From Squalus acanthias (lineage: Eukaryota): a DNA stretch of 64,000 bases. The DNA lies in contig CM059431.1 of NCBI GenBank assembly GCA_030390025.1, positions 94,366,001-94,430,000 of the forward strand, in the 5' to 3' direction. The position numbers and the translations under genes were made by a program. The notes below the pieces were generated by a model that saw nothing but the letters and a program-made list of their open reading frames with translations, ran no database searches and had not been told where the DNA came from. Below, in pieces: positions 1,653 through 55,221 of this stretch; positions within the stretch are counted from its first letter, which is position 1; each line of letters starts with the position of its first letter.

Positions 1653-3552
1653 CTATTTGTGTGTTAGCTTCCTCTTACGCGAGCTTCTACATGGTGCTTC
1701 CCCTGTGGCTTCAGCAGATGTAGAGGCACCTTGCTCACTTTGATGCTGCGCCTGCTTCGATGCCTTTGGCAGGCGTCCTCTGGGTTTGGGTGCCTGGGAG
1801 AGTTCCTCCACAGTCTGCTCTTCCTGCGGCTGTGCAGGGGCTGAGACGGCCATCTCAGTTGGGTGAGGACTCTGGGGCTCTGACCCAGGGCTCCGCAGTG
1901 GCATGGTCATGTGAGCACTTGGAGAGGAGCCCACACTTCCTGTTGTCTGCCACCAACATCCCTCTCATGGGTCACCCGCACTTCAGTGCTAGCAAGTGGC
2001 TGGAGAGCACTTTGCTGCACATCAGTGGGGCCATGAAGACCCGTCTCTGTACTGACAATCCTCATAACAGGGACATCCATGTACCTCTGGTGTCTCTCCT
2101 TAATAAATGCCCATCTATCCTCCATAGCAGACCATCTATTTAGAAGAGTCACCATGTTCTCGTGTGTCTGGTGACTTATGTCCTCCAAGAAGGTTGCCAC
2201 CCTCTCCATGGCGGCATGTTCATGCACCATTGCCTCCACAAAGGCAGTGCTCATGTTGGAGTTGGACTCCTCCATTCTCTCCACACCCGCAGTTACCCTG
2301 GAGGCAAACCCTGTCAGAGACTCCTGCACTTGTTCCTGGAGTTCCAGCACCGCTCTCTTTCAGGATGGCCCCAGAGGCACAGCGTCTACATGCAGCTGAG
2401 CAGAGCTAGGAGCGTCCAGCTCCCTCCGCCGAGGACTCTCCACTGCTGTCGCTGTCTCCACCGCTGCTGATGCTCACTTGTGAGCTGTGATACACCAGGT
2501 GACAACACTACTCTATGTTGCGAAGGCCCCGCCGAGGTGTGCGTATCTGCGCTGGTGCTGGGTGCGCTGAGTCCTGGTGACGCTGCTCCCTCAGAGGCTG
2601 CAGGTTCTTCTAAGAAGTCGTCCGGCTCTTCCTCCTGAACAGTGGGGAGGGGGGCTCTTGATGGTCCTGTGGGAGAGTAAAGGCATCAGTTAGACATCTG
2701 ATTTTTAGATAGCAGACACATCCTATTGTGCAGATGATACAAAGTGAATCCCTATGAACATCATATACCAATCATGAAATCTAAATGTGAGGGATGAAAC
2801 TCTATTCTGTCACCAGCTTCATCTAGTGCGCCCGTCTCTCCGTCCCCCACTTCCAGCCCCTCACCGCCTCCCACGATCTCATGCGCAGCTTCCTCAGCAC
2901 TTGTCAATGTCGCCAACGTTGGAGCCCCTCTTCCTGTCTTTGCTCTCTCGCTCCTATTGTGGGCTATCGTTTCCTGCAAGGAGGGACACAAGTGGAGTTT
3001 CAGCGAGATTGATGGAGTGACTGAAGAATTCATAACAGAAGCTTAGAGGGAGACCAAGATGGAGTGAGGTGCCAAGAGGAAGGTGCCACCCTGTGCGTTG
3101 TTAGTTGATGTCATTGCATAACAGTGAGAGCGAGTGTGAGGGGTGCATAATAGGATGGTGAAGTGATTCAATACAGAGAGAGAGATGGACAGGTAATGGT
3201 GCAAGGGAAGTAAGAGTAAGGTGTGATGTGGAGGAGTAGGCTTACAAAGCAGAGTGCTGGTGATGAGGAGAAGGGAAGCAGATAAGTGTGATGTGAAACT
3301 CACTTTTGCTGATCGCAGAAGATCATTGAACCGTTTCCGGCACTGGATCCAGGTGCGTGAACAAACGGACCTTGCGCTGACCTCCTCAGCAATATGCAGC
3401 CAGGCTGCCTTTGTTTGCTGAGGAGGCTTCCTCTGGCCATCGGGAGGGAACAGAATCTGCACCCTCTCAAGGCGCCCTCTTACTCCCTCCACAAGAGCTT
3501 GGAGGGAGTGCTCATTGAAACGTGGAGCAGCCTTCGGTTTTGCACCACTCAT
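1653..3552 (-). pseudogene. Harbinger Myb/SANT-like DNA-binding protein; exons 3552-3304, 2973-2814, 2666-~1653 (frameshifted)
   Basis: MSGAKPKAAPRF...W..IAEEV...RTWIQCRKRFNDL; GT/AG introns (phase 0, then phase 1); basic C-terminus RSSRKRK. Confidence 0.88.
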
Positions 3553-3809
3553 TGTGGCCTTGGCACATTCAGAGACCAGCAGAAATGAGAAATGAAAGGC
3601 TGAGGCTGCATGAGCCCCTTAAAAACAACTGCAGCAATGACATCATCAGAGGCGACTAACAGACCCGATCGCAGTCATTGGACCAGCCAGTGCGCACCAC
3701 GGCACTTAATAGGCCAATTAAATTAAAATGTCAATTCGGGAGCGGCTGAAACCGGCAGCGGGCCCAGAACCGACCCACCAGGCAACCCGACTCCAACCCG
3801 CCTCCTCCA

Positions 3810-4155
3810 TTAGATTCGCAGCCTGAGTGTCTCCGCTTCCACCACTTCCGTCGGCAGCAAATTCCAGGTCATCACCACTCGCTGCGTAAAAAAGTTTTTC
3901 CTCACATACCCCCTGTATCTCTTGCCCAAAACCTTAAATCTGTGTCCCCTTGTCCTTGTACCATCAACTAGTGGGAACAGCCTTCCCCCGTCTAGCCTAT
4001 CCAAACCCATCATAATCTTGTACACCTCTATCAAATCACCCCTCAACCTCCTTTGCTCTAATGAAAACAAATCCAGCTTCTCCAACCTGTCCTTGTAGCT
4101 AAGATCCCCCATCCCCGGAACCATTCTGGTAAATCTCCTCTGCACCCTCTCAAGG
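3810..4155 (-). mobile_element. CR1 LINE fragment (C-terminal ORF2)
   Basis: QRRFTRMVPG...LEQRRLRGDLIEVYKIM...TRGH...FFTQRVV. Confidence 0.92.
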
Positions 4156-4278
4156 GTATGTTACTTTTTGTTACAAAGGGATTAGAGTATAAGAGAAGTC
4201 TTACTACAATTATACAGGGAATTGGTGAGGCCACACCTGGAGTACTGTGTACAGTTCTGGTCTCCTTACCTAAGGAAA

Positions 4279-4620
4279 AAAATGAGAAGTCGCACAACAC
4301 CAGGTTATAGTCCAACAGATTTATTTAATTTTACAAGCTTTCGGAGCTATCGCTCCTTCGTCAGGTAAGTTCGCAATGAGAGAATCTCCCAGAATTCACA
4401 ATTTAAACCCAGACAAAATCTATTCACATTATTCGCTACAACAAAGAGCACAGCCAAGACAATGAGATGTGTCCCAGGGGGTCCAGCGTGTCAAACCACC
4501 TGCTGGCTGCATATCCTGTCAATTTGTGTTCTTGTGTTTTTAAAAAAAAAAAAACACCTGGGAAGACCGGCCATGATGTCAAGTCACGTTCTGTATCGTG
4601 ACATGAACCCGATATCGCGA
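4279..4620 (-). mobile_element. Short non-coding Penelope-like retroelement with hammerhead motif
   Basis: 13-bp TSD TTACCTAAGGAAA (4266-4278 and 4621-4633); first ~220 bp are very similar to 52399-52623; contains a hammerhead core. Confidence 0.85.
4331..4368 (-). ncRNA. Minimal type I hammerhead ribozyme motif
   Basis: Minus strand reads UUAC-CUGACGA-A-GGAGC-GAUA-GCUCC-GAAA-GC-UU-GUAA: conserved core, 5-bp stem II, 4-bp stem I, palindromic AAGCUU in place of stem III. Confidence 0.8.
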
Positions 4621-5276
4621 TTACCTAAGGAAAGACATACTTGCCTTAGAGGGAGTGCAGCAAAGGGTCACTAGACTGGTTCCTGGGATGAGGGGATTGC
4701 CCTATGAGGAGAGATTGAGTAGACTAGGTCTATATTCCTTAGAGTTTAGAAGAATGAGAGGTGATCTAATTGAAACATATAAAATTCTTAAGGGGCTTGA
4801 CAGGGTTAATGCTGGGAAAATGTTTCCCCTGGCTGGGGAATCTAGAACACGGGGTCACAGTCACAGAATAAGGGGTTGGCCATTTAGGACTGAGATGAGG
4901 AGAAATTTCTTCACTCAGAGGTTGGTGAATCTTTGGAATTCTCTACCCCAGAGAGCTGTGGATGCTCAGTCATTGAGTATATTCAAGACAGAGATCGATA
5001 GATTTTTGGGAACGAAGGGAATTAAGGGATATGGGGATAGTGCGGGAAGGGGGAGTTGAGGTAGAAGATCAGCCATGATCTTGATGAATGGCGGAGCAGG
5101 CTCAAAGGGCCAAATGGCCTACTCCAGCTCTTATTTCTTATGTTCTTATGTTCACTTCCTCCCCAGCCATGAGCCGCTCACAACAACTCCTCTCCCACCT
5201 CCCCCCTCGATTTACCTAGCGTCCTGCTGCCTTCTCTTGATACGAGCAGGCACTGAACTGGGCCGTCCAATCTTAT

Positions 5277-5430
5277 GGGCCGGAATTTTCTGTACCTGGA
5301 CGGTCACTGTCGCGGGTCGCGACTCCATTCTTCATTCCATCCCGCAGCTGAGAATGACTTTCCGTTAATGGGGCCTATTAAGGCCGCCCTGCGCGTTACC
5401 TGGCCCTGTTAAATGGTGCGGGTAATGGGA
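5277..5430 (+). mobile_element. Truncated Harbinger terminal fragment (similar to the H4 left end)
   Basis: Starts GGGCCGGAATTTTC; 5370-5425 resembles 29829-29883. Confidence 0.55.
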
Positions 5431-5726
5431 ATCACATTGGAGGATCACTAGTTTAAAAGGACATAACAAAGAAAATGGCAATTTTAAAATAATATCACAG
5501 AAGTATTTTGCTTGTCTCAAGATAGGTAGGAGATACCCTTTACTCTTAGAAATCCACTGAATGCGAGGGCATCCTTCTTTATTTCCAAGTGATCTAACTT
5601 CTTGGAATATGCTTCTTGCTGAGGCATTGACAGTGTCAAAGAGCCTCCAGGAGCAATGATTTTCCTGGTGTATGAATTAGCCACTCTGTCAATTATTAGG
5701 TTGAATTGAAGATAGTAGCCTTACAC

Positions 5727-5746
5727 TGCATTCTGGGAGTTGTAGT
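5727..5746 (-). promoter_or_regulatory. ZNF143/THAP11-type (ACTACA..TCCCA) promoter motif
   Basis: Minus strand ACTACAACTCCCAGAATGCA matches ACTAYRnnnCCCR plus the SBS half; ~360 bp upstream of the putative ATG at 6104. Confidence 0.45.
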
Positions 5747-6103
5747 GCCCCTGTGCGACATGCACAGTAACACTGGTGTATTCTTGGAACTGCAGTATTC
5801 AACGTGGTTGAGCTTCTTCAGTCGTGTAGGCCCTAGGTACACAATGCAAGGTCTGGGAATGCAGCAGATCTTAAGTGCACAATAGATCTAGGAAAGTGAG
5901 CATCAGTTCAAGCTATTTTTGATAACTGGATTAATCTATAGTTCTGTGGCTGGATTCAAACCCGTAAGTTTTGTAAGATAGAAAGGCCACTACAGATGTC
6001 TTCTTTTCCCACAACCACCAAGAATGAGGATCATCATTCTATCCGTGTAAATGGGCATAATGTAGGTCATCTGACTCGGAGGAATCCAGGATGCAATCTG
6101 GGA

Positions 6104-6152
6104 ATGAATTCTAGGAAATGCCTACTGTACCTTTGTGTTATTAGTGTTCTTG
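6104..6152 (+). CDS. Putative leader exon (signal peptide) of the CD200R-like Ig receptor
   Basis: MNSRKCLLYLCVISVL + G|gtatga; phase-1 donor compatible with the IgV exon; basic N-region then hydrophobic core. Confidence 0.55.
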
Positions 6153-6714
6153 GTATGAGTTTGTCCACACCTGGAAAGCAGCTTCTGGTTCCAAGCCAGG
6201 GCGTGCAAAACTGAAAAAATAATTGTTGGAAGAAAAAGCTATTTCTCCAAATATTCAAAAATTACTTTGGTAGTATTTGTTCCTGGGCATTAATAAAATT
6301 TTGAAGATGGGAATCTCCAGCAGAGAGCAGTTTCAGTCCTGATACTTTTTGTCTACAAGGGCCAATGTCAAGGGGGAAGGCACTTCCACTTTCCATGACA
6401 AAATTGGCATTTCTACATATGCTCTTTTATTATTTATATTTTTAATACACATACGCCGCTCTCACTCCCTTTCCCTTTTTTGCAGTTAATCATAGGAGCC
6501 AAATGGGTGTCATTAAAACAACACATATCTGGTTTCATTGAGGCCAGGACAACATACGGACAGAAAATCCTGCATGGTCCGCAGACCTCAATGTGTGCTC
6601 CCAGTAAGAGACGCTCCCCATCAGCAGGGAAAATGCAGCGTTACCATTCTGTTGCCCTCCCTGCTCCTCTTTGTTTTGCTCAGTCCTGTAAAAGGGGTCT
6701 CCTCCTGACCATGG

Positions 6715-6835
6715 AAATTTTGAAGAAAGGCCTCACCTGAAATGTTAACCTGCTATTTCTATTTTAAACAGTTGTGTATTTCCAGCATTTTCTATTTTTT
6801 AAATTTCAGATTCTAGCATTTACAATTTTTCTTTT
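6715..6835 (+). mobile_element. Degenerate Penelope-like terminal repeat (family of 59008-59145)
   Basis: TTGAAGAAAGGCCTCACCTGAAATGTTAAC...TATTTCCAGCATTTTCT resembles the 59008 copy. Confidence 0.5.
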
Positions 6836-6889
6836 CATTTTAAATTTTAAGAATAGGTTGGTCCAGTCACAAATAACCTGATATTTACA

Positions 6890-7500
6890 GGGAAAAAGGC
6901 CGAAGACCTGGAACGCGGAGGTTCTGCTGATCTTAATGGCCTCATTTGCATCTAGTAGCTCCGTCGCCCGCACGGCAGAGAACAGTAGCGTCAGGAGGCT
7001 GTAGCGGAGACCCTTGGCAATGGTCCCCGGCAATTGTGGGGGGTGGGGCGCTCCGGTCAGCAATCATTTTGGGGGGTTGGAGAGGATCGGCAATAGGGAG
7101 AGGGAAGGTTGGCAATGGGGAGGGGGTGGATCGGCAATAGGGAGGGGGTAGAATCGGCAATCAGGAGCGGGGAAGGTCGGCAATCGGGAGGGATGGGGAC
7201 TGTGATCAGGAGGGCTAGGGGGATGGAGGCTGGAGATCGTGGCTGAAGGCTTCCTTGAGGAGCCTGGAGGGAGAACTGCTCCTCTTGGCCCACAAGGAGT
7301 GCTGAAAGAGTCATTTACCTTGGGGAACCTGTGCAGCACGCAAAGTTTCAAATCAGGCTTCCAATTGCACTGTAGCAGCCCAATTTAAATATGCTAATAA
7401 GCGTGTCTATGACAGGACACTCGTACGCCAGAATAATAGCGGTGTTAGGATCGGGTTACGCGGTTTTCATTTTTTAACCCCCCAACCCTCTCCTGCCCGC
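6890..7500 (+). mobile_element. Harbinger-type non-autonomous element with G-rich internal repeats (termini unclear)
   Basis: GATCGG/GGCAAT G-rich repeats; 7275-7320 is similar to 13685-13740. Confidence 0.55.
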
Positions 7501-7559
7501 ACACAAAATCTAGGCTGACACGCCAATGTAATATTGAGGGAGTACTGCACTGTCGGTGG

Positions 7560-10500
7560 CGTACGGATATGCAGATCAGGGAGGTGAACACATGGCTGAA
7601 GAAGTGGTGTGGGAAAGAGGAGTTCCTTTTCTGGGACACTGGCACCAGTATTGGGACAGGAAGGAACTGGACCATTTTGACGGGCTCCACCTGAACCGGG
7701 CTGGGACCAGGGTCCTAGCGGAAAGGATAAATAGGGCATTCACAGGGACTTTAAACCAGTAAATGAGGGGATGGCTCAGGTGGAAAAGGTAGTATAAAAA
7801 ATAGTTCTAAAACAAACGAAAGGAAGAGAGTAGAGTAATAGTCAGAAATTGTGCTTTAGGCACTACAGGTAAAGGGAAAACTAAAAGATGTAAAGTGATT
7901 AAACCAGGAGAGAGAAATAAGAATTGTGTGAGTAAAACATCAGAGCAGGACAGGTTAGGGTGTGTGGCCCAAATGAGTGTTATTTATACGAACACACGTA
8001 TAAGTATAAGAAACAAATTGAATGAACTGCAGGTGCAAATTCAACTTGGAGGGTATGACATGGTAGCCATTACTGAGACATGGCTGTAAGAAGGTCAGGA
8101 CTGGGAACTAAATATACCAGGTTATAAGGTCTACAGGAAGGATAGGGAAAATGGCAGAGGGGGAGGAGTAGCCTTAATGATTAATGAAATCACTTCAATG
8201 ATAAGAGAGTATATAACGAGAGGTAGTGGAAACTTTATGGTTAGAATTAAGAAATAGAAAAGGATTTAAGACTATAGTAGGAGTTATGTATAAGACCCCC
8301 TGGTAGCAGCTGTGAAGTGGTAGAATGCATAATTGCAGAGATTGGACAAGCAAAGGCAGAATGGTTTTAATGGGGGATTTTAACTTTCATATAGATTGGT
8401 ATAAGCAGACTAGCTCATGTCAGAAAGCTAGTGAATGTCTTAAGTGTATTCAGCATAGTTTTCTGCAACAACATGTCCAAGAACCAACAAGGGGGCAGGT
8501 CATATTAGATTTAGTAATCAGAAATGAGCCAGATTTAGTTAATAGCCTAACGGTCCATGAACATTTATCTAATAGCAATCCTAATATGATTGAGTTCAAT
8601 GTAGTGTTTGGAAGGGAGAAACGCAAAACAGCTACTAAGATTCTAGATGCGATGTGACAGAGTCTGTCCACAGTAAACTGGACAAATTTGCTAATGGGTA
8701 AAATGACAGTAGATCAGTGGGAGGTGTTCAGAAAAGAATTTAATGTGATACAGAACCAGTTTTTACCCCTAAGGAGTAAGAGGTCTACTTGCCAAAAAAA
8801 AAACCCAGCCATGGACGACTAAAAAGGTAAGGGACAACTTAAAACTAAAAGAAAAAGCATTGAAAAATGCAAAAACTAGCACAGATCCAGGCAATTGGGA
8901 GAGATACAAAGAACAACAAAAGGAGACAAAACAGATAGTAAGAGCTACAAAAAGGGAGTATGAGAAGAAACTTGCAAGGGATATCAAAATCAACACAACA
9001 TTTTTTTACAATTATATTAGGAAAAGAGGATGGTCAGGAGCAATGTCGGCCCCTTAAAAACTGATAATGGTGATATTGCAATAGAAAATAAGGAAATGGC
9101 GGACATGTTGAATAATAACTTTGCATCAGTATTTACAGTAGAGGAAGAGGATAGCATGCCAGAAATCCCAAGAAAACAAATATTAAATCAGAGATGCAGA
9201 TTCACCAAAATTAAAACATAAGCAAAATAACAGTAATGAAGAAAATAATGGCACTAACAAGTGACACATCCCCAGGACCAGATGGTTTCCATCCCAGGAT
9301 TTCAAAAGAAGTGAGAACATTGCAGATTCCCTAACTATAATCTTCCAAATTGTTTCGATTCAGGAACTGTTCCTTTAGATTGCAAAACTGTGCATGTCAC
9401 TCCAATATTTAAGAAAGGTGAGATAGGGAAACCAGGGAATTATAGACCAGTTAGCCTAACATCTGTTATCGGGAAATTACTAGAGTCTATAATTAAGGAT
9501 AGAGTGACTGAACATCTTGAACATTTTCAGCTGATCAGAGAGAGCCACCATGGATTAGAAAAGGGGGGTCATGCCTGACGAACCTGTTGAATTTTTTGAA
9601 GAGGTGACTAAAGTAGTAGACAGGGGAATGTCTATGAATGTTATTTATATGGACTTCCAGAAGGCATTTGATAAAGTCCCTTGTAAGTGACTGTTAGCTA
9701 AAGTTGAAGCTCATGGAATTGAAGGTAAATTATTGACCTGGTTAGGAAATTGGCTGAACGGCAGGAGACAGAGAGTAAGGATAATGGGCAGGTACTCTAA
9801 TTGGCAGGATGTGACTAGTGGAGTCCCACAAGGATCCCTGTTGGGACCTCAACTATATACCGTATTCATTAATGACTGAGATGATGGGATAGAAAGCCAC
9901 GAATCCAAATTTGCCAATGACAAAAAGATAGGCGGCATTATAAGTGGTGTAGAAGCAGAAAATGAAAAAGAAATATTAATAGATTAAGCAAATAGGCAAA
10001 ACTGTGGCAAATGGATTTCAATGTAGGCAAATATGAGGTCATCCACTTTGGACCTAAGAACAGGGTACTTTCTAAAATGTGAAAAGCTAGAAACAGTGGA
10101 TATCCAAAGAGACTTGGGGGTCCAGGTACATAGATCATTAAAATGTCATGAACAGGTACAGAAAATAATCAAAAAGGCTAATGGAATGCTGGCCTTTATA
10201 TTTAGAGGACTAGAATACAAGGGGGTAGAAGTTATGCTGCAGCTGTACAAAACCCTGGTTAGACCACACCTGGAGTATTGTGAGCAGTTCTGGGCACCAC
10301 ACCTTAAGAAGGATATATTGGCCTTGGAGGGAGTACAGCGTAGATTTACCAGATTGAAACCTGGACTCCAAAAGTTAAATTATGAGGAGAGATTACACAA
10401 ACTAGAGTTCTATTCCCTGGTATTTAGAAGTTAAGGGGTGATTTGATCGAAGTTTTCAAGATATTAAGGGGAGCAGATAGGGTAGATAGAGAGGAGCTAT

Positions 10501-40432: not shown

Positions 40433-41223
40433 GGGCTCGAATTTCCAAGCCCCGTGGAGGCGGGTTTGGAGGCGGGAAACTTGCAGATTCGGGGGGCACG
40501 TACCCATCCCACCCCCAACCCGCCTCCATGCCAATGTCCCAGGAGGCGGGTACCCGACCTATGCTGGGAGCCGCCTCCCTGAGGCGGGAAGGGGATTAGT
40601 GCCAATTAACTGCCTGTTAACAGGTAATTAACAGGCAGTTTTTTGGCTAATCCCTATTTTTAGCCCTGAAGTGTGGGCTGCCCAACGGCTCCAAACCACG
40701 CCAAGTTAGTGAGGCGGACCGTTGGTCTGCAGGGCTTGGAGGGGTTGAGATGTCCGGTGTACAAGTGAGTGATAGGTGCATGAGTGCAGAGGTAAGTGTT
40801 TGGTGTGTGTAAAGTGTTTTAATAAGTTTTACTTACCTTTACTTTCCCCTCCAGGCTTCCTCCCTTCAGTTCTCGGGAGTCCCTCAGCTCACCGGCACAG
40901 AAAGCAGAATGGCCGCTGAGCTGTCAAAAGCTGCAGCCTCTGCTTTCTGGTCTGGAGAGCTCTAACTGAGTCTGAGTAGAAGGACTCAAGTTAGAAAACA
41001 GATTGTCAGTGTTTGACAGCTTCACAGAGCTGTCAAACGCTGATATTTCATCTGTCAAAAGCTCTTGACAGATGAAATGTCAATCGCTGACGTCACCAGT
41101 ATCCAAGTGTCCCTTAATTGGCCTGCTGAGCCCGCTGGGCGGGCTTAACAAGGTCAATCAAGGGAAAGTAGCGTGGGTTGGCCACAAATCGATGGAGGCA
41201 GGACTACAACCCAAAAAGTGGGA
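40433..41223 (+). mobile_element. Harbinger-type non-autonomous element (right end lost)
   Basis: TAT|GGGCTCGAATTTCC; homologous to 42224-42635. Confidence 0.75.
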
Positions 41224-41345
41224 GTCAGGTGAAGTGAAGAAATACCTTCACTTCACCTGACGAAGGAGCAGCCGCTCCGAAAGCTTGTGATTTCAAATAA
41301 AACTGTTGGACTATAACCTGGTGTTGTGCGACTTCTCACTTGTGT
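41224..41345 (+). mobile_element. Penelope-like terminal fragment with an inverted 5' duplication
   Basis: Reverse complement of the ends of the 4279 and 52399 inserts; 16-bp perfect inverted repeat 41224-41239 / 41246-41261. Confidence 0.82.
41253..41290 (+). ncRNA. Minimal type I hammerhead ribozyme motif
   Basis: UCAC-CUGACGA-A-GGAGC-AGCC-GCUCC-GAAA-GC-UU-GUGA. Confidence 0.8.
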
Positions 41346-42223
41346 TTCAGTTGGGGAGACATCAGATGGCCTTGCAGGACGACCTCGATCAGCTGTGAAC
41401 CTGGAAGCCCCAGCTGTCGACTGCACCACCTCGGCATGGGCAGAAACAGCCTGGGCTAGCTGACAGGCAGTGGCAAGGGCAATGGCAGAGTGGCAGTGGT
41501 GGGAGCAGGAATGCTGTCATCTTGAAAGAGGATCCTGCTCCACAGACCCACTACCACTCCTCTGGGGTGGTGGCTCAGTATTCCTAGAAATCTGTTGGAG
41601 GATAGATTGCTGGGCTGCTGCAGCATCCTGCAAGCCCCTTTCAACACTGGTAAACCCAGCCATGATGGCAGCAGTCAAACTTGGCAGCAAGCTGAGACTG
41701 CAGCATTGAGACATTGGGTCACTACTGCCTGTGCTGCAATGGAAGCCGCAACATCACTCATCACATGGCTGGGTCGACAAGATCTCTTCTGGAGTTGTCC
41801 ATCATTTCCAGGTTGGAAATCATGGGCTCCAAGTTCTGCGCAAAGCCCTGTCCAATGTTGGAGCTGGACTCCTCCATGTTTCTTGCCATTGTCAAGAGGC
41901 TTTCTGGAAGGCTTGCCATTGCAACTAGCATTTCAATGTGCATGCCCATCACCCTTCTTCTGAAGGCCACCCCGTCGAGGTCATCATCTGAGTCACGTGC
42001 AGCAGAACGCGCACGCGAACCCGCCCTCCAGGGAGCAGGCCCCTGAGCTACCCTATTCCCCTGGCCTTGCTGCAGCCCACTCATGCCCGCTGCCTCACCA
42101 TGTGCAGATCCTGCATCTTTACTACCCTCTACATTCCACGCAGTGCCAGTTTCTGAGCTGGTGTCTGCGAGTGTCAGATGCAGTGATGGTGTGTCTTCTT
42201 CTTCATCTCAACTCTGAGGCATA

Positions 42224-51507: not shown

Positions 51508-52398
51508 AAGCCTTTGTGCTATTTAACACGTTCAAGATTTTTTTCCCTTCAATAATGTTATTGAAGTATATATATTTAGTAAAGAGTATAGTTTTTATGA
51601 TTGTGACATAGATCAGTGTATTTGCATTTTAACAGTGATTTATGCTGGATTGGCAATGCACTGAGCAATAACAGAGGGATAATTATAGGCTTAAATCAGG
51701 ATCAAGTCTCGTGTCTCATCACAAATTATAATAACTCTGAATAAGTAGGACATTGGCTCATTAAAACACTGCACTTAGATTGACATTTACTTCCCATGTT
51801 GGTGACCGACAGAGACAAGCCCCTGTCTTGGCCTCTCTTGTTATAGTCAAGCAGATTCAAGATGGGAATTTTCAACCAGGTTCCCATTCCTGATCACTGT
51901 TGCAGTGAGTTCTGGCTGAAGCACGTGGGTGTCGGGTGAGGACAGCATCAGGCTTGGCTGTGATGCCCTCCATAATTCAGTAGCCTACAGCCACTCAGTA
52001 TCTAGACTCGCACATAAAGAAGGGTGATTTGGGACGGCACCAAAAGGCTGCCAGTGCTTGTGGAACTGCACCCTTGCATCAGTTATGTCTTTCAGGAAGG
52101 AGAGTAGAAGATGAGATGTTTTTAAGCAGCTTCCTTTGCTATAGGAAGTTAAAAGCCCATGGGATCCAGGGCAAAGTGTCAAGTTGGATTCAAAACTGGC
52201 TTGGAGACAGGAAGCAGAGGGTAATGGTTGATGGGTGTTTTTGTGATGGAAGGCTGTTTCCAGTGGGGTTCCGCAGGATCAGTACTAGGTCCCTTGCTTT
52301 TTGTGGTATATCTCAATGATCTAGACTTGAATATAGGGGGTATGATTAAGAAGTTTGCAGATGATACTAAAATCGTCTGTGTGGTTGATACTGAAGAA

Positions 52399-52623
52399 AA
52401 TGAGAAGTCGCACAACACCAGGTTATAGTCCAACAGATTTATTTAATTTTACAAGCTTTCGGAGCTATTCGCTCCTTCCTCAGGTAAGTTAGCAGTGAGA
52501 GAATCTCCCAGAATTCACAATTTAAACACAGACAAAATCTATTCAAATCTTTCCCTACATCAAAGACACACTAAGAGTACAGCCAAGACAATGAGATGTG
52601 TCCCAGGGGGTCCAACGTGTCAA
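52399..52623 (-). mobile_element. Short Penelope-like retroelement with hammerhead motif
   Basis: 9-bp TSD ACTGAAGAA (52390-52398 and 52624-52632); homologous to 4279-4495. Confidence 0.85.
52449..52487 (-). ncRNA. Minimal type I hammerhead ribozyme motif
   Basis: UUAC-CUGAGGA-A-GGAGC-GAAUA-GCUCC-GAAA-GC-UU-GUAA. Confidence 0.78.
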
Positions 52624-55221
52624 ACTGAAGAAGGAAGCTGTAGACTGCAGGAAGATATCAATACATTCGTCAGGTGGGCAGAACAGTGGCAAATGGAATT
52701 CAATCCAGAGAAATGTGAGGTAATGCATTTGGGGAGGGCTAACAAGGAAAGGGAATGGTACACATTAAATGGTAGGACACTGAGTAGTGTAGAGGAACAA
52801 AGGGAGCGTGGAGTGCATGTCCACAGATCCCTGAAGGTAGCAGGCCAAGTAGATAAGGTGGTTAAGAAGGCATACGGAATGCTTGCCTTTATTAGCCGTG
52901 GCATAGAATACAAGAGCAGGGGGGTTATGCTTCAACTGTATAAAACACTAGTTAGGCCTCAGCTAGAGTACTGCGTGCAGTTCTGGTCACCACATTACAG
53001 GAAAGATGTGATTGCACTTGAGAGGGTACAGAGGAGATTTACAAGGATGTTGCCGGGAGTAGAGAATCTTAGCTATGAGGAAAGACTGGATAGGCTGGGT
53101 CTGTTTTCCTTGGAACAGAGGAGGCTGAGGGGAGACCTTATTGAGATGTATAAAATTATGAGGAGCACAGATAAAGTGGATAGAAAGGACCTATTGCCCT
53201 TAGCAGAGGGGTCAAAAGCTAGGGGGCACAGATTTAAAGTAATTGGGGGAAGGTTTAGAGGGGATTTGAGGGGAAATTTCTTCACCCAGAGGGTTGTGGG
53301 GGTCTGGAACTCACTGCCTGAAAGGGTGGTAGAGGCAGGAACCCTAACCACATTTAGAAAGTACTTGGATGTGCACTTGGGATGCTGTAATCTGCAGGGC
53401 TATGGACCAAGAGCTGGGAAGTGGAATTAGGCTGGATAGCTCTTTGTTGGCCGGCGCGGACATGATGGGCCGAAATGGCCTCCTTCCGTGCTGTAACTTT
53501 CTATGATTCTAGGAGTTACTGTAACTTTGTAACTGTCTTCAGGACCCAGATGATGTTCAATGATGTCCTAGTCTGTCAGTCCATTTTTATTTTGTTCAAA
53601 GAACAAGGTTGGAGACCATGGCCTCGAAGACCACTGGGCCCTTGATCCTGGCATAAATGTTGGGAACCACCCACCAATGACCTCCAGCACTGACCCCACC
53701 AAGCTCGCAGAGTCAAGGGGAGGTCATCTCAGTAAACATAATATGAGCGGGTGCCTGCACGAGTAGAGGCCGCATCTTGGGTGCCCACCATGAAGTCGAG
53801 GCCACAAAATATGATTTTGGGTGTCCACTACAGGAGGGATATGGGTGTCCCCCAACCCCCATAAACATTACACAACAGTGATCATTGGCTCCTTTATAAA
53901 GGAACTGAGGAAAACTTTAAACTTCAACTTTAAATCTCCGAGGTGGGCCTCACTTCTGTATTTGGATGGGCGAGTATGTCTGGCCCCATTTGGTGTATGG
54001 CCAGCCACTTTTCCACCAGGCCTGACACTCTCTTGACCGGTCTCACTCCCACTTAAACAGCTGGACTTGTTTAGGGTGGGAGGAGGCACTGTTCCTTATA
54101 AAGCCCCAGTGAAAACTCCCAGAAAAGGCAGAGATGTGGAAATTCAACCACCATTTTCAATTGAAATTTCACACAAAACCAAATACTTCTCATGTATTAA
54201 CACAAAATGGAAATAGTGCTATTTAAGGAATCATTTAAGTTACGTAGTTTCTAAAGCAAGCACATTTCTGTCAGCAATGGTGAGATCAATATCTGCCTCC
54301 TATGACAGATTGGATTTCTTGACCATCTCATTCTGTGGACTACAAATGTTCTCCTTCTTCCAACCTGCCTTCGTCACTGGTAGAAGTCACTAATGGAGGT
54401 GCTTGCTAACATCTTCATTTCTACCACTAATTTCTCAAAACTGCAAACAATATCCACTAAAACCCATTACCAAAAGGTTACTCATACTCAGGTTAAGTAA
54501 TCTATGGTTTAACTGAACTAAAATCTTATCTAAAAGTTGGACTGCATATCTTTGTAAATGCTGTGTATCCAGTTTATAAACATTATATTTTTCTGTATGT
54601 AAAAATTTAATAAAATTATTAATAAAAGAAAAATTGTGGAATTGATACAGGTGTCGCAGTTCAGTGATTCGGATGAGTCTGAAGACTACTCTAAACCAAA
54701 ATACTAAACAAACACAGTGCGCTGCACCTACCTTGTCCTCATTTTAAAAAGCTCCAGGTAATCAAGTTATTGCTTCATTATTAAGAACTTTGTCTGAGAT
54801 TAGAATATGAAATATCAATTCACGTATTTCTTATCATTAATATTCTACTTAAGTTGATTCCTTTGAATGTTTCTTTTTCTGACATGTAATATAAATGATA
54901 TACAAAGGCAAATTTTGCAATTTAGCAACCCCAGCAGAACTTTGGAGCGCAGGGTGGGAATTTGGGCATTAATGCTCCCAATTCATGTTCCACACAATCT
55001 TAATAACCAAAAAATCGTGCGGGGCACAAACCAGACACACTGACCTCTGTGCCCAAATTCCTGATAATGCAAAGCTGTAAACTGGAAGCACATAAATTGC
55101 AAGAGATACTCCTGACTTGTGGGAGCCCTTTCCACAAGTTCGGTTTGGGCCTCTACATTTTACTGGACAACGGTATGAAATACTACCTACTTAATCTGGC
55201 GTCACACTGCCTTTCATTAAG

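What the first reader, a model, noticed from the sequence alone, without database searches (positions are those of the whole stretch)
4279..4620. Mobile non-coding mini-retroelement carrying a minimal hammerhead ribozyme
Seen: a 342-bp insert with a 13-bp TSD and no credible ORF. It shares its 3' end with inserts at 52399 (225 bp, 9-bp TSD) and 41246-41345. About 50 nt from that end lies CUGAnGA-A-stem II-GAAA-GC-UU closed by stem I, followed by AAUAAA. Established: Penelope-like elements and derived retrozymes carry minimal type I hammerheads whose tiny palindromic stem III implies dimeric cleavage. Inference: a non-autonomous ribozyme-bearing family mobilised in trans. Shared 3' ends, variable 5' ends and variable TSDs fit target-primed reverse transcription.
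Basis: partly seen in the sequence, partly recalled or inferred. Interest (0 to 1): 0.8.

Follow-up and report, generated by a model that had tools for sequence, protein, structure and literature searches.

The report
Truncated Penelope-like retrotransposon copies with hammerhead
The 342-bp insert is the broken-off tail end of an ordinary, protein-coding Penelope-like retrotransposon, whose end regions are already known to carry a minimal hammerhead ribozyme motif, so it is not a new kind of mini-element.

Summary
Window 4279-4620 (minus strand) is a discrete insert with an exact 13-bp target-site duplication. It shares an identical 36-nt 3' block with copies at 52399-52623 and 41224-~41341. 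It carries CUGACGA-A-GGAGC-GAUA-GCUCC-GAAA-GCUU, then AAUAAA.

In 29 of 30 genomic copies the sequence continues upstream into an 892-aa ORF (reverse transcriptase plus GIY-YIG-type endonuclease). That ORF is flanked by 247-nt direct repeats (pseudo-LTRs) which hold the motif. The window insert is only the last 11 codons, the stop and the 3' region. All three window copies are 5'-truncated copies of autonomous Penelope-like elements (PLEs).

Inverted 5'-truncated partners, a 38-nt "tail" at one end and AT-rich targets match published PLE hallmarks. The motif meets every sequence feature of the published PLE "min-HHR". Rfam models do not detect it.

Genome-wide the motif occurs 55,484 times (control 39). 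Pair-preserving transitions in helix II outnumber pair-breaking ones 14,981 to 280. One helix I pair covaries (U-A 12,512; C-G 31,166; mixed 541). The RNA structure is therefore maintained in propagating lineages. Cleavage itself is untested.

Verdict: a known kind, of low novelty.

The parts
4266..4278 (.). Left copy of the 13-bp target-site duplication TTACCTAAGGAAA
   Evidence: Exact repeat of 4621-4633
4279..4620 (-). 5'-truncated copy of an autonomous Penelope-like element (PLE): end of the ORF plus the 3' region / pseudo-LTR up to the proximal ('short') terminus
   Evidence: 40 scored genomic matches span all 342 nt (one 1-341) at 98-100% identity; 29 of 30 loci continue upstream into the ORF
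4584..4620 (-). Remnant of the PLE ORF: one base of a split codon, then RDIGFMSRYRT and the stop
   Evidence: Same frame as the 892-aa ORF of L031 4216-6894 and the open-ended ORF of L005 ending at 1537
4331..4368 (-). Minimal type I hammerhead motif: helix I 5' strand UUAC (4365-4368), CUGACGA, bulged A, helix II GGAGC-GAUA-GCUCC, GAAA, GCUU (core 4335-4364), helix I 3' strand GUAA (4331-4334). The predicted cleavage site lies between 4335 and 4334
   Evidence: features as in PMC4209133; genome-wide pairing statistics
4320..4325 (-). AATAAA hexamer downstream of the motif, conserved in all three copies; role unknown, and no poly(A) tail is present at copy ends
   Evidence: Read
4283..4318 (-). 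36-nt 3' block identical in all three window copies, followed by the T-run (4279-4282) at which this copy ends
   Evidence: 0 mismatches in 3 copies; 11 of 30 loci end at or just after the T-run
4621..4633 (.). Right copy of the 13-bp target-site duplication
52399..52623 (-). Second, more severely 5'-truncated copy (sister subfamily; hammerhead core 52453-52483, loop GAAUA, N7 = G), flanked by the 9-bp duplication 52390-52398 / 52624-52632
41224..41341 (+). Third copy (older subfamily, helix I UCAC/GUGA, loop AGCC; hammerhead core 41257-41286). Its first 16 nt (41224-41239) are an inverted stub of 41246-41261, a miniature of the head-to-head arrangement typical of PLEs

Best explanation
All three window inserts are dead-on-arrival, 5'-truncated copies of autonomous Penelope-like retrotransposons (PLEs), from closely related subfamilies, in a genome where these elements are very abundant and look recently active. 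The full unit is about 3.0 kb. [quoted passage not shown] The 3' end of an insertion runs into the start of the next unit's ORF, so the template RNA is longer than one unit. Shown here: this anatomy; the truncation series; the target-site duplications; the head-to-head inverted partners; the two alternative 3' termini 38 nt apart. Inferred from published work on an anole PLE (PMC11167929): the endonuclease nicks AT-rich DNA on both strands, and reverse transcription starts at either of two internal sites of the RNA. This produces the 'tail' and the inverted partners, and premature termination produces the truncations. The hammerhead motif sits in the pLTR, 92 nt upstream of the ORF start. It is the published PLE 'min-HHR': a type I hammerhead with no stem III, only the palindrome AGCU. 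Two copies would therefore have to pair to build helix III. Shown here: helices I and II are kept paired in the lineages that amplified. Inferred, not shown: the motif self-cleaves tandem transcripts after GCUU, probably with help from protein, to release unit-length RNA.
For: Identity as a truncated coding element. 29 of 30 loci continue upstream of the window copy's 5' end with shared sequence. That sequence is the end of a long ORF, complete at 892 aa in L031 4216-6894. Pfam RVT_1 matches residues 427-557, E 2.2e-8. The C-terminus aligns with 27 homologues, and Y792, Y805, G807, R816, H820, E866 and N881 are nearly invariant. 23 of those 28 sequences match Pfam GIY-YIG. pLTRs: 247-nt direct repeat 3973-4219 = 6992-7238, 100% identical, spacing 3019, each with the motif. 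Inverted 5'-truncated partner: L031 3025-3972 and 13 of 30 loci. Tail: ends split 43 short / 42 long. All 21 head-to-head pairs found in L001-L063 (L031-L033 left out) are one long plus one short, as are 20 of 20 short dimers. These are the published PLE hallmarks (PMC8557442 passages; PMC11167929 main text). Motif: every sequence feature listed in PMC4209133 is present. Genome count is 55,484 against 39 for the control. Helix II at non-CpG pairs 2-4: reference 34,616; plus pair-preserving transitions 49,597 (+14,981); plus pair-breaking transitions 34,896 (+280). Helix I pair 1.3-2.3: U-A 12,512, C-G 31,166, U.G 361, C.A 180. Position N7 takes all four bases in abundant variants.
Against: No Rfam hammerhead model matches, even at E <= 10 on the short regions. 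Pfam does not call GIY-YIG on this ORF itself, and a profile search of solved structures gave only weak RT hits, so the endonuclease assignment rests on alignment to homologues that I picked from the 120 listed. No evidence of cleavage or even of transcription was obtained: the runs found were contigs of uncertain kind. Both arms of one head-to-head pair carry a core change, U4 to C (C1:5309345/5310061). A template with a damaged core was therefore still inserted, in line with the published in vitro finding that hammerhead mutants do not affect insertion. The pairing counts are copies, not independent events: a few successful lineages account for most of them. The pairing could be kept for protein binding rather than catalysis.
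Confidence: 0.92

Rival explanations
1. One reading: a separate, non-coding, non-autonomous ribozyme-bearing mini-retroelement family (retrozyme-like or SINE-like) that borrows the 3' end of a Penelope element and is mobilised in trans.
For: The window copies are short and non-coding, have target-site duplications and share the 3' end. Non-autonomous PLE derivatives with hammerheads (non-LTR retrozymes) are described in vertebrates, including one cartilaginous fish (bioRxiv 10.64898/2026.07.22.740005, abstract and passages).
Against: There is no discrete 5' end. 29 of 30 and 21 of 30 loci of the two young families run on upstream into the ORF or 3' region of the coding element, and the rest stop at assorted points. 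No tandem head-to-tail arrays were seen at the window copies, which are single and flanked by duplications. Sequence identity to the coding copies is 98-100% throughout.
Confidence: 0.03
2. The short head-to-head dimers are themselves a self-propagating, palindromic non-autonomous family copied as a unit. These are about 206 bp plus a 38-nt tail, with two opposed hammerhead motifs, flanked by duplications. The 41224 copy would be a truncated member.
For: All 20 fetched loci are such dimers with duplications of about 9-13 bp. About 12 of the 20 share the same junction (one arm from CTTCAC, the other from GTATTY). The window copy starts exactly at the base of the palindrome.
Against: The 20 loci were retrieved with a query that contained that junction, so the sample is biased. 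In the unbiased listing, start-to-start distances of opposed motifs run almost continuously (36, 44, 46, 52, 52, 55, 62, 63, 71, 122 ... 2591), and further pairs at 37-45 appear. Asymmetric dimers and longer copies of the same subfamily exist. Both arms often share a variant (both arms of L070 and L073; of L079 and L083; of L080 and L083). This is expected if both arms are made from one template at insertion, and not if a diverged master dimer is copied. Inverted truncated partners are a known by-product of PLE insertion, and the anole PLE extends both target strands.
Confidence: 0.07
3. The conserved CUGANGA...GAAA hairpin is not a working ribozyme. It is kept as a binding or folding element for the element's protein, or merely hitch-hikes on the element.
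For: Published metazoan PLE hammerheads cleave very poorly in vitro, even as dimers. In the anole element hammerhead mutants do not change insertion, and no RNA-seq ends were found at the site. PLE clades without the motif proliferate well. Here a U4-to-C core variant was inserted as a pair. Monomer folds are only weakly better than shuffles (z -1.5 to -2.25).
Against: Across the abundant variants listed, the only core position seen to vary was N7, the one position free in hammerheads. The bulged base, G10.1-C11.1 and the AGCU palindrome are all kept, which a plain hairpin would not need. The anole motif does cleave with protein present, and C3/G8 rescue mutants behave as for a true hammerhead.
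Confidence: 0.25
4. The inverted-repeat units are DNA transposons (MITE-like, with terminal inverted repeats) rather than retroelement products.
For: They have terminal inverted repeats and flanking duplications.
Against: Duplication length varies (about 9-13 bp). One end always carries the 38-nt tail and the other never does (41 of 41). The arms are truncated versions of a reverse-transcriptase-coding element. No transposase is associated.
Confidence: 0.01

Closest known systems
Penelope-like elements with C-terminal GIY-YIG endonuclease (Penelope/Poseidon, Neptune, Nematis clades; Craig et al. 2021, PMC8557442; anole Poseidon PAc, Frangieh et al. 2024, PMC11167929)
   Same: Single ORF with RT and a GIY-YIG-type endonuclease; pLTRs from partial tandems; heavy 5' truncation; an inverted 5'-truncated copy at the 5' side; a 30-40-bp tail at one end; AT-rich targets; a hammerhead motif in the pLTR; unit of about 3 kb.
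   Different: Here the two termini lie about 40 nt before the ORF start and at the ORF start. In PAc the RT start sites lie 111-118 nt inside the ORF and the hammerhead overlaps the start codon. The CX4CX2C linker points to Neptune/Nematis rather than Penelope/Poseidon, but no phylogeny was made. The one-tail rule held without exception here (41 of 41 pairs), whereas the paper says 'often'.
Minimal hammerhead ('min-HHR') of metazoan PLEs (Cervera and de la Pena 2014, PMC4209133; dimer cleavage, Lunse et al. 2016, known to me only from the reference list seen)
   Same: Type I topology; CUGANGA and GAAA boxes; an extra base between positions 9 and 10.1; G10.1-C11.1; palindromic 15.1-16.1 (AGCU) with no loop III; a short helix I (4 bp); most motifs solitary in truncated copies; opposed pairs 100-700 bp apart.
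   Different: Helix II is 5 bp here, against 7-8 bp in the schistosome families and 6 bp in Drosophila virilis described there. The copy number with this one descriptor (55,484) is several times the 4,000-9,000 reported there for coelacanth and Xenopus, though the descriptors differ.
Non-LTR retrozymes of animals (Cervera and de la Pena 2020, PMC7229834, search listing only; Li, Clavereau and Pollet 2026 preprint, abstract and passages)
   Same: Hammerhead-bearing, PLE-related sequence.
   Different: Retrozymes are discrete non-coding units in head-to-tail tandem arrays that give circular RNAs. The window copies are solitary truncations of a coding element, not tandem, and have no unit boundary of their own.

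Membership tests
Penelope-like element (EN+ type) | Reverse transcriptase domain in a single long ORF | tested here: met
   892-aa ORF in L031 4216-6894; Pfam RVT_1 E 2.2e-8, above the curated cut-off; D534 and D535 of YIDD are invariant in the alignment of 28
Penelope-like element (EN+ type) | C-terminal GIY-YIG endonuclease | tested here: met
   Indirect. Pfam gives no GIY-YIG hit on this ORF. However, 23 of 28 aligned homologues (my own pick from the 120 listed) match PF01541, and the ORF shares the nearly invariant Y792, Y805, G807, R816, H820, E866 and N881 with them. No fold test was made
Penelope-like element (EN+ type) | Pseudo-LTRs from a partial tandem arrangement | tested here: met
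   247-nt direct repeat flanking the ORF, 100% identical, spacing 3019; the 3' repeat ends in the ORF's own start codon
Penelope-like element (EN+ type) | Frequent 5' truncation and an adjacent inverted 5'-truncated copy | tested here: met
   Window copies of 342, 225 and ~118 bp; 13 of 30 loci with an inverted upstream partner; 25 (-,+) against 2 (+,-) neighbouring motif pairs within 3 kb in the first 100 genome rows
Penelope-like element (EN+ type) | [quoted passage not shown] | tested here: met
   38-nt extension; 43 short and 42 long ends; 21 of 21 pairs and 20 of 20 short dimers have exactly one
Penelope-like element (EN+ type) | RT branching with telomerase RTs / placement in a named PLE clade | not tested
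   No tree was built. Only the CX4CX2C linker (C753, C758, C761) hints at Neptune/Nematis
PLE minimal hammerhead (min-HHR) | Conserved core boxes CUGANGA and GAAA in type I order, with helix II closed by a loop | tested here: met
   N7 is C, G and C in the three window copies
PLE minimal hammerhead (min-HHR) | Unpaired base between positions 9 and 10.1, and a G10.1-C11.1 pair | tested here: met
   A after CUGANGA; helix II GGAGC/GCUCC; features listed in PMC4209133
PLE minimal hammerhead (min-HHR) | No stable helix III; palindromic 15.1-16.1 that allows a dimer | tested here: met
   GAA-AGCU-U: AGCU is self-complementary (read); monomer folds show no helix III
PLE minimal hammerhead (min-HHR) | Helices supported by covariation across copies | tested here: met
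   Helix II: 14,981 pair-preserving against 280 pair-breaking transitions. Helix I pair: 43,678 of 44,219 Watson-Crick in two alternative states. A small variant GGAGU...ACUCC was seen at three places. Counts are copies, not events
PLE minimal hammerhead (min-HHR) | Self-cleavage after position 17 (as a dimer or with protein) | not testable with these tools
   Needs transcription and cleavage assays or raw stranded RNA reads; only contigs were available
Rfam hammerhead families | Match to a curated covariance model | tested here: not met
   No family at gathering score in the window. No hammerhead family at E <= 10 in 4250-4650 or 41150-41400. The published work also needed a special descriptor for these motifs
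Non-LTR retrozyme / non-autonomous mini-element | A discrete non-coding unit with its own ends, not a truncation of a coding element | tested here: not met
Non-LTR retrozyme / non-autonomous mini-element | Head-to-tail tandem copies giving circular RNA | tested here: not met
   The window copies are solitary and flanked by duplications. Circular RNA could not be tested

The most novel reading that the evidence does not exclude
The short head-to-head units are not random by-products. They have two opposed hammerhead motifs and, in all 41 pairs examined, exactly one 38-nt tail; both arms often share the same private variant. They would record an obligate two-ended insertion in which one protein dimer copies a single RNA from the two alternative start sites, one on each target strand. 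Alternatively, the dimers themselves have become a palindromic non-autonomous lineage. Either reading would give a concrete, testable rule for the still unsolved Penelope insertion mechanism.
Probability: 0.12. Interest if true: 0.5.

Novelty: new member of a known kind. Interest (0 to 1): 0.15.

Why it matters
As a discovery claim it matters little. Penelope-like elements with minimal hammerheads in their pseudo-LTRs, and the scatter of solitary motifs in truncated copies, were described in 2014, and PLEs are reported in all vertebrate lineages examined (PMC4350176, passages). What is useful is the scale and freshness of this case. There are about 55,000 motif copies, copies identical over 225-342 nt, and an open 892-aa frame. 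That makes this genome a good natural data set for two open questions about PLEs. The first is whether the hammerhead structure is needed in vivo: the 53-fold excess of pair-preserving changes says the structure is kept, although insertion in vitro does not need it. The second is how the tail and the inverted partner arise: the one-tail rule held in 41 of 41 pairs.

Tried and rejected
1. Rfam scans gave no hammerhead family (at gathering score; at E <= 10). I take this as a limit of the models for motifs that lack stem III, not as evidence against the motif.

2. Pfam on the C-terminal 252 residues at E <= 10 gave nothing. A profile of 28 homologues against solved structures gave only weak RT hits (best E 0.0029), with no GIY-YIG chain.

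3. RNA evidence. The one search for sequencing runs returned only Logan contigs, most of guessed kind. Laying X1, X2, X4 and X9 gave no usable starts, ends or circular joints. The depth step at L031 7152 reflects the 3' block shared by all subfamilies, as the loose ends from other subfamilies show. One 171-nt contig from a true RNA library covers 6800-6931. No verdict on transcription or cleavage follows.

4. I first read the shared centre of the 20 short dimers as a sign of one inherited structure. The unbiased genome listing and longer or asymmetric copies showed that my query had selected that junction.

5. Earlier findings of this scan: one look-up by words found nothing.

6. Lunse et al. 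2016 (PMC5785218) is not held. I know it only from a reference list.

7. I did not check Repbase or Dfam (not available), so I cannot say whether this particular family is already catalogued.

8. No structure prediction, complex prediction or tree was run. They would not change the verdict.

Full report
**What is in the window**

The insert at 4279-4620 lies on the minus strand, with its 3' end at 4279. It is bounded by an exact 13-bp direct repeat (4266-4278 = 4621-4633). The insert at 52399-52623 is bounded by an exact 9-bp repeat (52390-52398 = 52624-52632). Each carries CUGANGA, one unpaired A, a 5-bp hairpin GGAGC/GCUCC, GAAA and GCUU, followed by AAUAAA. The third copy begins at 41224, not 41246. 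Its first 16 nt are the reverse complement of 41246-41261 and form a 16-bp hairpin with it. The described sequence features are therefore real.

**Copies elsewhere in the genome**

The window's own assembly (3.7 Gb, 3,882 contigs) was searched with the 342-bp insert. Of 769 first-look candidates, 40 were scored. These gave 44 matches, of which 40 cover all or all but one of the 342 nt at 98-100% identity. I fetched 30 loci.

- In 29 of the 30, every one except the window's own, the similarity continues upstream of the window copy's 5' end.
- That upstream sequence is the end of a long open frame.
- One locus (L031) holds the whole frame: 892 aa at 4216-6894.
- The window insert therefore starts inside the last codons of this frame. 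Positions 4584-4620 (minus strand) encode RDIGFMSRYRT and the stop; the rest is the 3' region.

The 225-bp copy behaves the same way. 41 matches were 100% identical over its length. In 21 of 30 fetched loci the similarity runs at least 90 nt further upstream into the homologous 3' region. The other 9 stop at assorted points, several with their own target-site duplications. The third copy belongs to an older subfamily (90-98% identity), of which longer copies also exist.

**What the full element is**

- The ORF matches Pfam RVT_1 (E 2.2e-8, above the curated cut-off).
- Pfam does not call a GIY-YIG domain on it, either on the whole protein or on the last 252 residues at E <= 10.
- Its homologues are, at 79-91% identity, proteins that the sources label as uncharacterized proteins of sharks, then turtles, ticks and other animals at 33-45%.
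- I aligned the ORF with 27 homologues picked from the 120 listed, favouring diverse ones and ones flagged with GIY-YIG.
- 23 of the 28 aligned sequences match Pfam GIY-YIG (best E 7.1e-8).
- The ORF shares the nearly invariant Y792, Y805, G807, R816, H820, E866 and N881 with them. It also shares three cysteines spaced CX4CX2C in the linker.
- The endonuclease assignment is thus indirect but consistent.
- Craig et al. 2021 (passages seen) attribute such a linker motif to the Neptune and Nematis clades. I made no tree.

**Layout of a full copy**

In L031 the ORF is flanked by a 247-nt direct repeat (3973-4219 = 6992-7238, 100% identical, spacing 3,019 nt). The hammerhead motif sits in each copy of the repeat (4095-4124 and 7114-7143), 92 nt before the start codon. 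The 3' repeat ends in ...CATCATGA, whose ATG is the ORF's own start. Some copies run a few codons further. The template is therefore longer than one unit, as expected for a partial tandem. Directly upstream lies an inverted, 5'-truncated copy (3025-3972) with its own motif.

**Match to published PLE hallmarks**

Craig et al. 2021 describe heavy 5' truncation, partial tandems that form pseudo-LTRs, an inverted 5'-truncated copy at the 5' side, a 30-40-bp 'tail' often at only one end, and a hammerhead motif within the pLTR. All are present here.

- 13 of 30 loci of the first family have an inverted upstream partner.
- Copy ends fall into two classes 38 nt apart: 43 short (at or just after the T-run) and 42 long (60 loci: L001-L063 without L031-L033).
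- All 21 head-to-head pairs found in those 60 loci combine one long and one short end. They come from 19 distinct places, because two places were fetched twice.
- The same holds for 20 of 20 short dimers of the older subfamily.
- Each such unit is flanked by one duplication of about 9-13 bp, so it entered in one event.

Frangieh et al. 2024 (main text read) report, for an anole element, cleavage and extension of both target strands. They also report reverse transcription starting at two adjacent internal sites, with the tail being the sequence between them, and AT-rich targets. That mechanism accounts for what is seen here. I infer rather than show that it applies to this element.

**The motif**

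Cervera and de la Pena 2014 (parts 1-2 read) defined the 'min-HHR' of metazoan PLEs. They list as recurrent features an extra base between positions 9 and 10.1, the G10.1-C11.1 pair, a palindromic 15.2-16.2 region with no real helix III, and a short helix I. They also noted opposed pairs 100-700 bp apart, and that most motifs are solitary and probably lie in truncated elements. The window motif has each sequence feature: A after CUGANGA, GGAGC/GCUCC, the self-complementary AGCU, and a 4-bp helix I (UUAC/GUAA or UCAC/GUGA).

No Rfam hammerhead model matches, at gathering score or at E <= 10 on the short regions. That fits the need for a special descriptor reported in that paper. Monomer folds give helix II and helix I but no helix III, and are only modestly better than shuffles (z -1.5 to -2.25). 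In the 41224 copy the inverted stub would lock up helix I and part of the core.

**Is the structure kept?**

The degenerate pattern occurs 55,484 times in the genome, against 39 for the same pattern read backwards. This shows abundance, not function.

For function I compared mutations that are the same event on opposite DNA strands, and so equally likely after insertion, at the three helix II pairs that are not in CpG context.

| Helix II class (pairs 2-4) | Count | Excess over reference |
|---|---|---|
| Reference GGAGC/GCUCC | 34,616 | - |
| Reference plus transitions that keep a pair (G.U) | 49,597 | 14,981 |
| Reference plus transitions that break a pair (A.C) | 34,896 | 280 |

For helix I pair 1.3-2.3 the four combinations are:

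| State | Count |
|---|---|
| U-A | 12,512 |
| C-G | 31,166 |
| U.G | 361 |
| C.A | 180 |

Both Watson-Crick states were amplified, and the mixed states occur only as scattered copies. A small variant with a compensated closing pair of helix II (GGAGU...ACUCC) was seen at three places. Position N7, the free position of hammerheads, takes all four bases in abundant variants.

These are counts of copies, and few independent events underlie them. They do show that lineages which went on to amplify kept the helices.

When the core was left free in the pattern, 13 of the first 100 rows had a core change. Seven of the 13 are at CpG sites, as expected for dead copies. One opposed pair carries U4-to-C in both arms, so a template with a damaged core was still inserted. 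That agrees with the anole result that hammerhead mutants do not affect insertion in vitro.

**What could not be shown**

Cleavage and expression remain untested. The only runs found were contigs, mostly of guessed kind. Laid on the pLTR, they gave no usable ends or joints.

**The short dimers**

I first took the 20 dimers with one shared centre for an inherited palindromic unit. They had been retrieved with a query containing that centre. In the first 100 rows of the unbiased motif listing, 25 neighbouring pairs within 3 kb are in the (-,+) order and 2 in the (+,-) order. Their start-to-start distances run from 36 to 2,591 with no gap. Asymmetric junctions of the same subfamily also exist. 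Both arms of a unit often share a private variant, which fits both arms being made from one template at insertion. A self-propagating dimer family is not excluded, but I put it at under 10%.

**Comparison and verdict**

In both mechanism and membership this is a Penelope-like element with the published minimal hammerhead. It is not a retrozyme-like or SINE-like family. PLEs are reported in all vertebrate lineages studied (PMC4350176, passages). A 2026 preprint (abstract and passages) finds tandem non-LTR retrozymes, which it derives from PLEs, in most of the vertebrate classes it sampled, including the one cartilaginous fish. I could not check Repbase or Dfam, so this family may or may not be catalogued. 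I file it as a new member of a known kind, of low interest. Two by-products may be of use to people who study PLEs: the strength of the pairing signal, and the exceptionless one-tail rule.

Noticed in passing
L001-L063 (without L031-L033) and L064-L083 (loci of the window's genome); window copy 41224-41341 is a partial example: In head-to-head insertion units exactly one arm carries the 38-nt tail: 21 of 21 pairs (19 distinct places) plus 20 of 20 short dimers. Copy ends overall are split 43 short to 42 long. Independent choice of start site on the two strands would give about half mixed pairs.
   Followed up: partly
whole genome G000 (pattern counts): The minimal hammerhead pattern occurs 55,484 times, about one per 67 kb, several times the 4,000-9,000 reported in 2014 for coelacanth and Xenopus with a different descriptor. 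In the first 100 rows, 25 neighbouring pairs within 3 kb are head-to-head and 2 are tail-to-tail.
   Followed up: partly
G000:C1:5309345-5309382 and 5310061-5310098: Both arms of one head-to-head pair carry the same core change (CCGACGA, U4 to C). A template with a damaged catalytic core was therefore still inserted.
   Followed up: no
window 4100-4278 and 4621-4800; 52250-52398 and 52624-52800: Both young inserts sit inside copies of another retroelement's coding region. The flanks translate to LINE-type reverse-transcriptase C-terminal motifs of the kind also seen as ORFs in L005 and L031 (...[15 protein letters not shown]..., ...MRGDLIETYKIL...). These are nested insertions in the dominant repeat of this genome.
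   Followed up: no
window 4535-4552 and the matching place in L034-L063: The 3' region holds a T-run followed by an A-run whose lengths differ between copies and subfamilies (for example T13A5 against T8-13A5-10), a small length-variable tract inside the element.
   Followed up: no
L031 6800-6931 (run X9): One 171-nt contig from a library recorded as RNA matches the end of the ORF and the start of the 3' region without a difference, and stops in the T-run. This is a weak hint of transcription, or of DNA carried into the library.
   Followed up: no
L031 4216-6894: At least one copy of the young family has an uninterrupted 892-aa frame, and its flanking repeats are 100% identical. Together with many copies identical over 225-342 nt, this suggests recent activity. 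No other copies were examined for open frames.
   Followed up: partly
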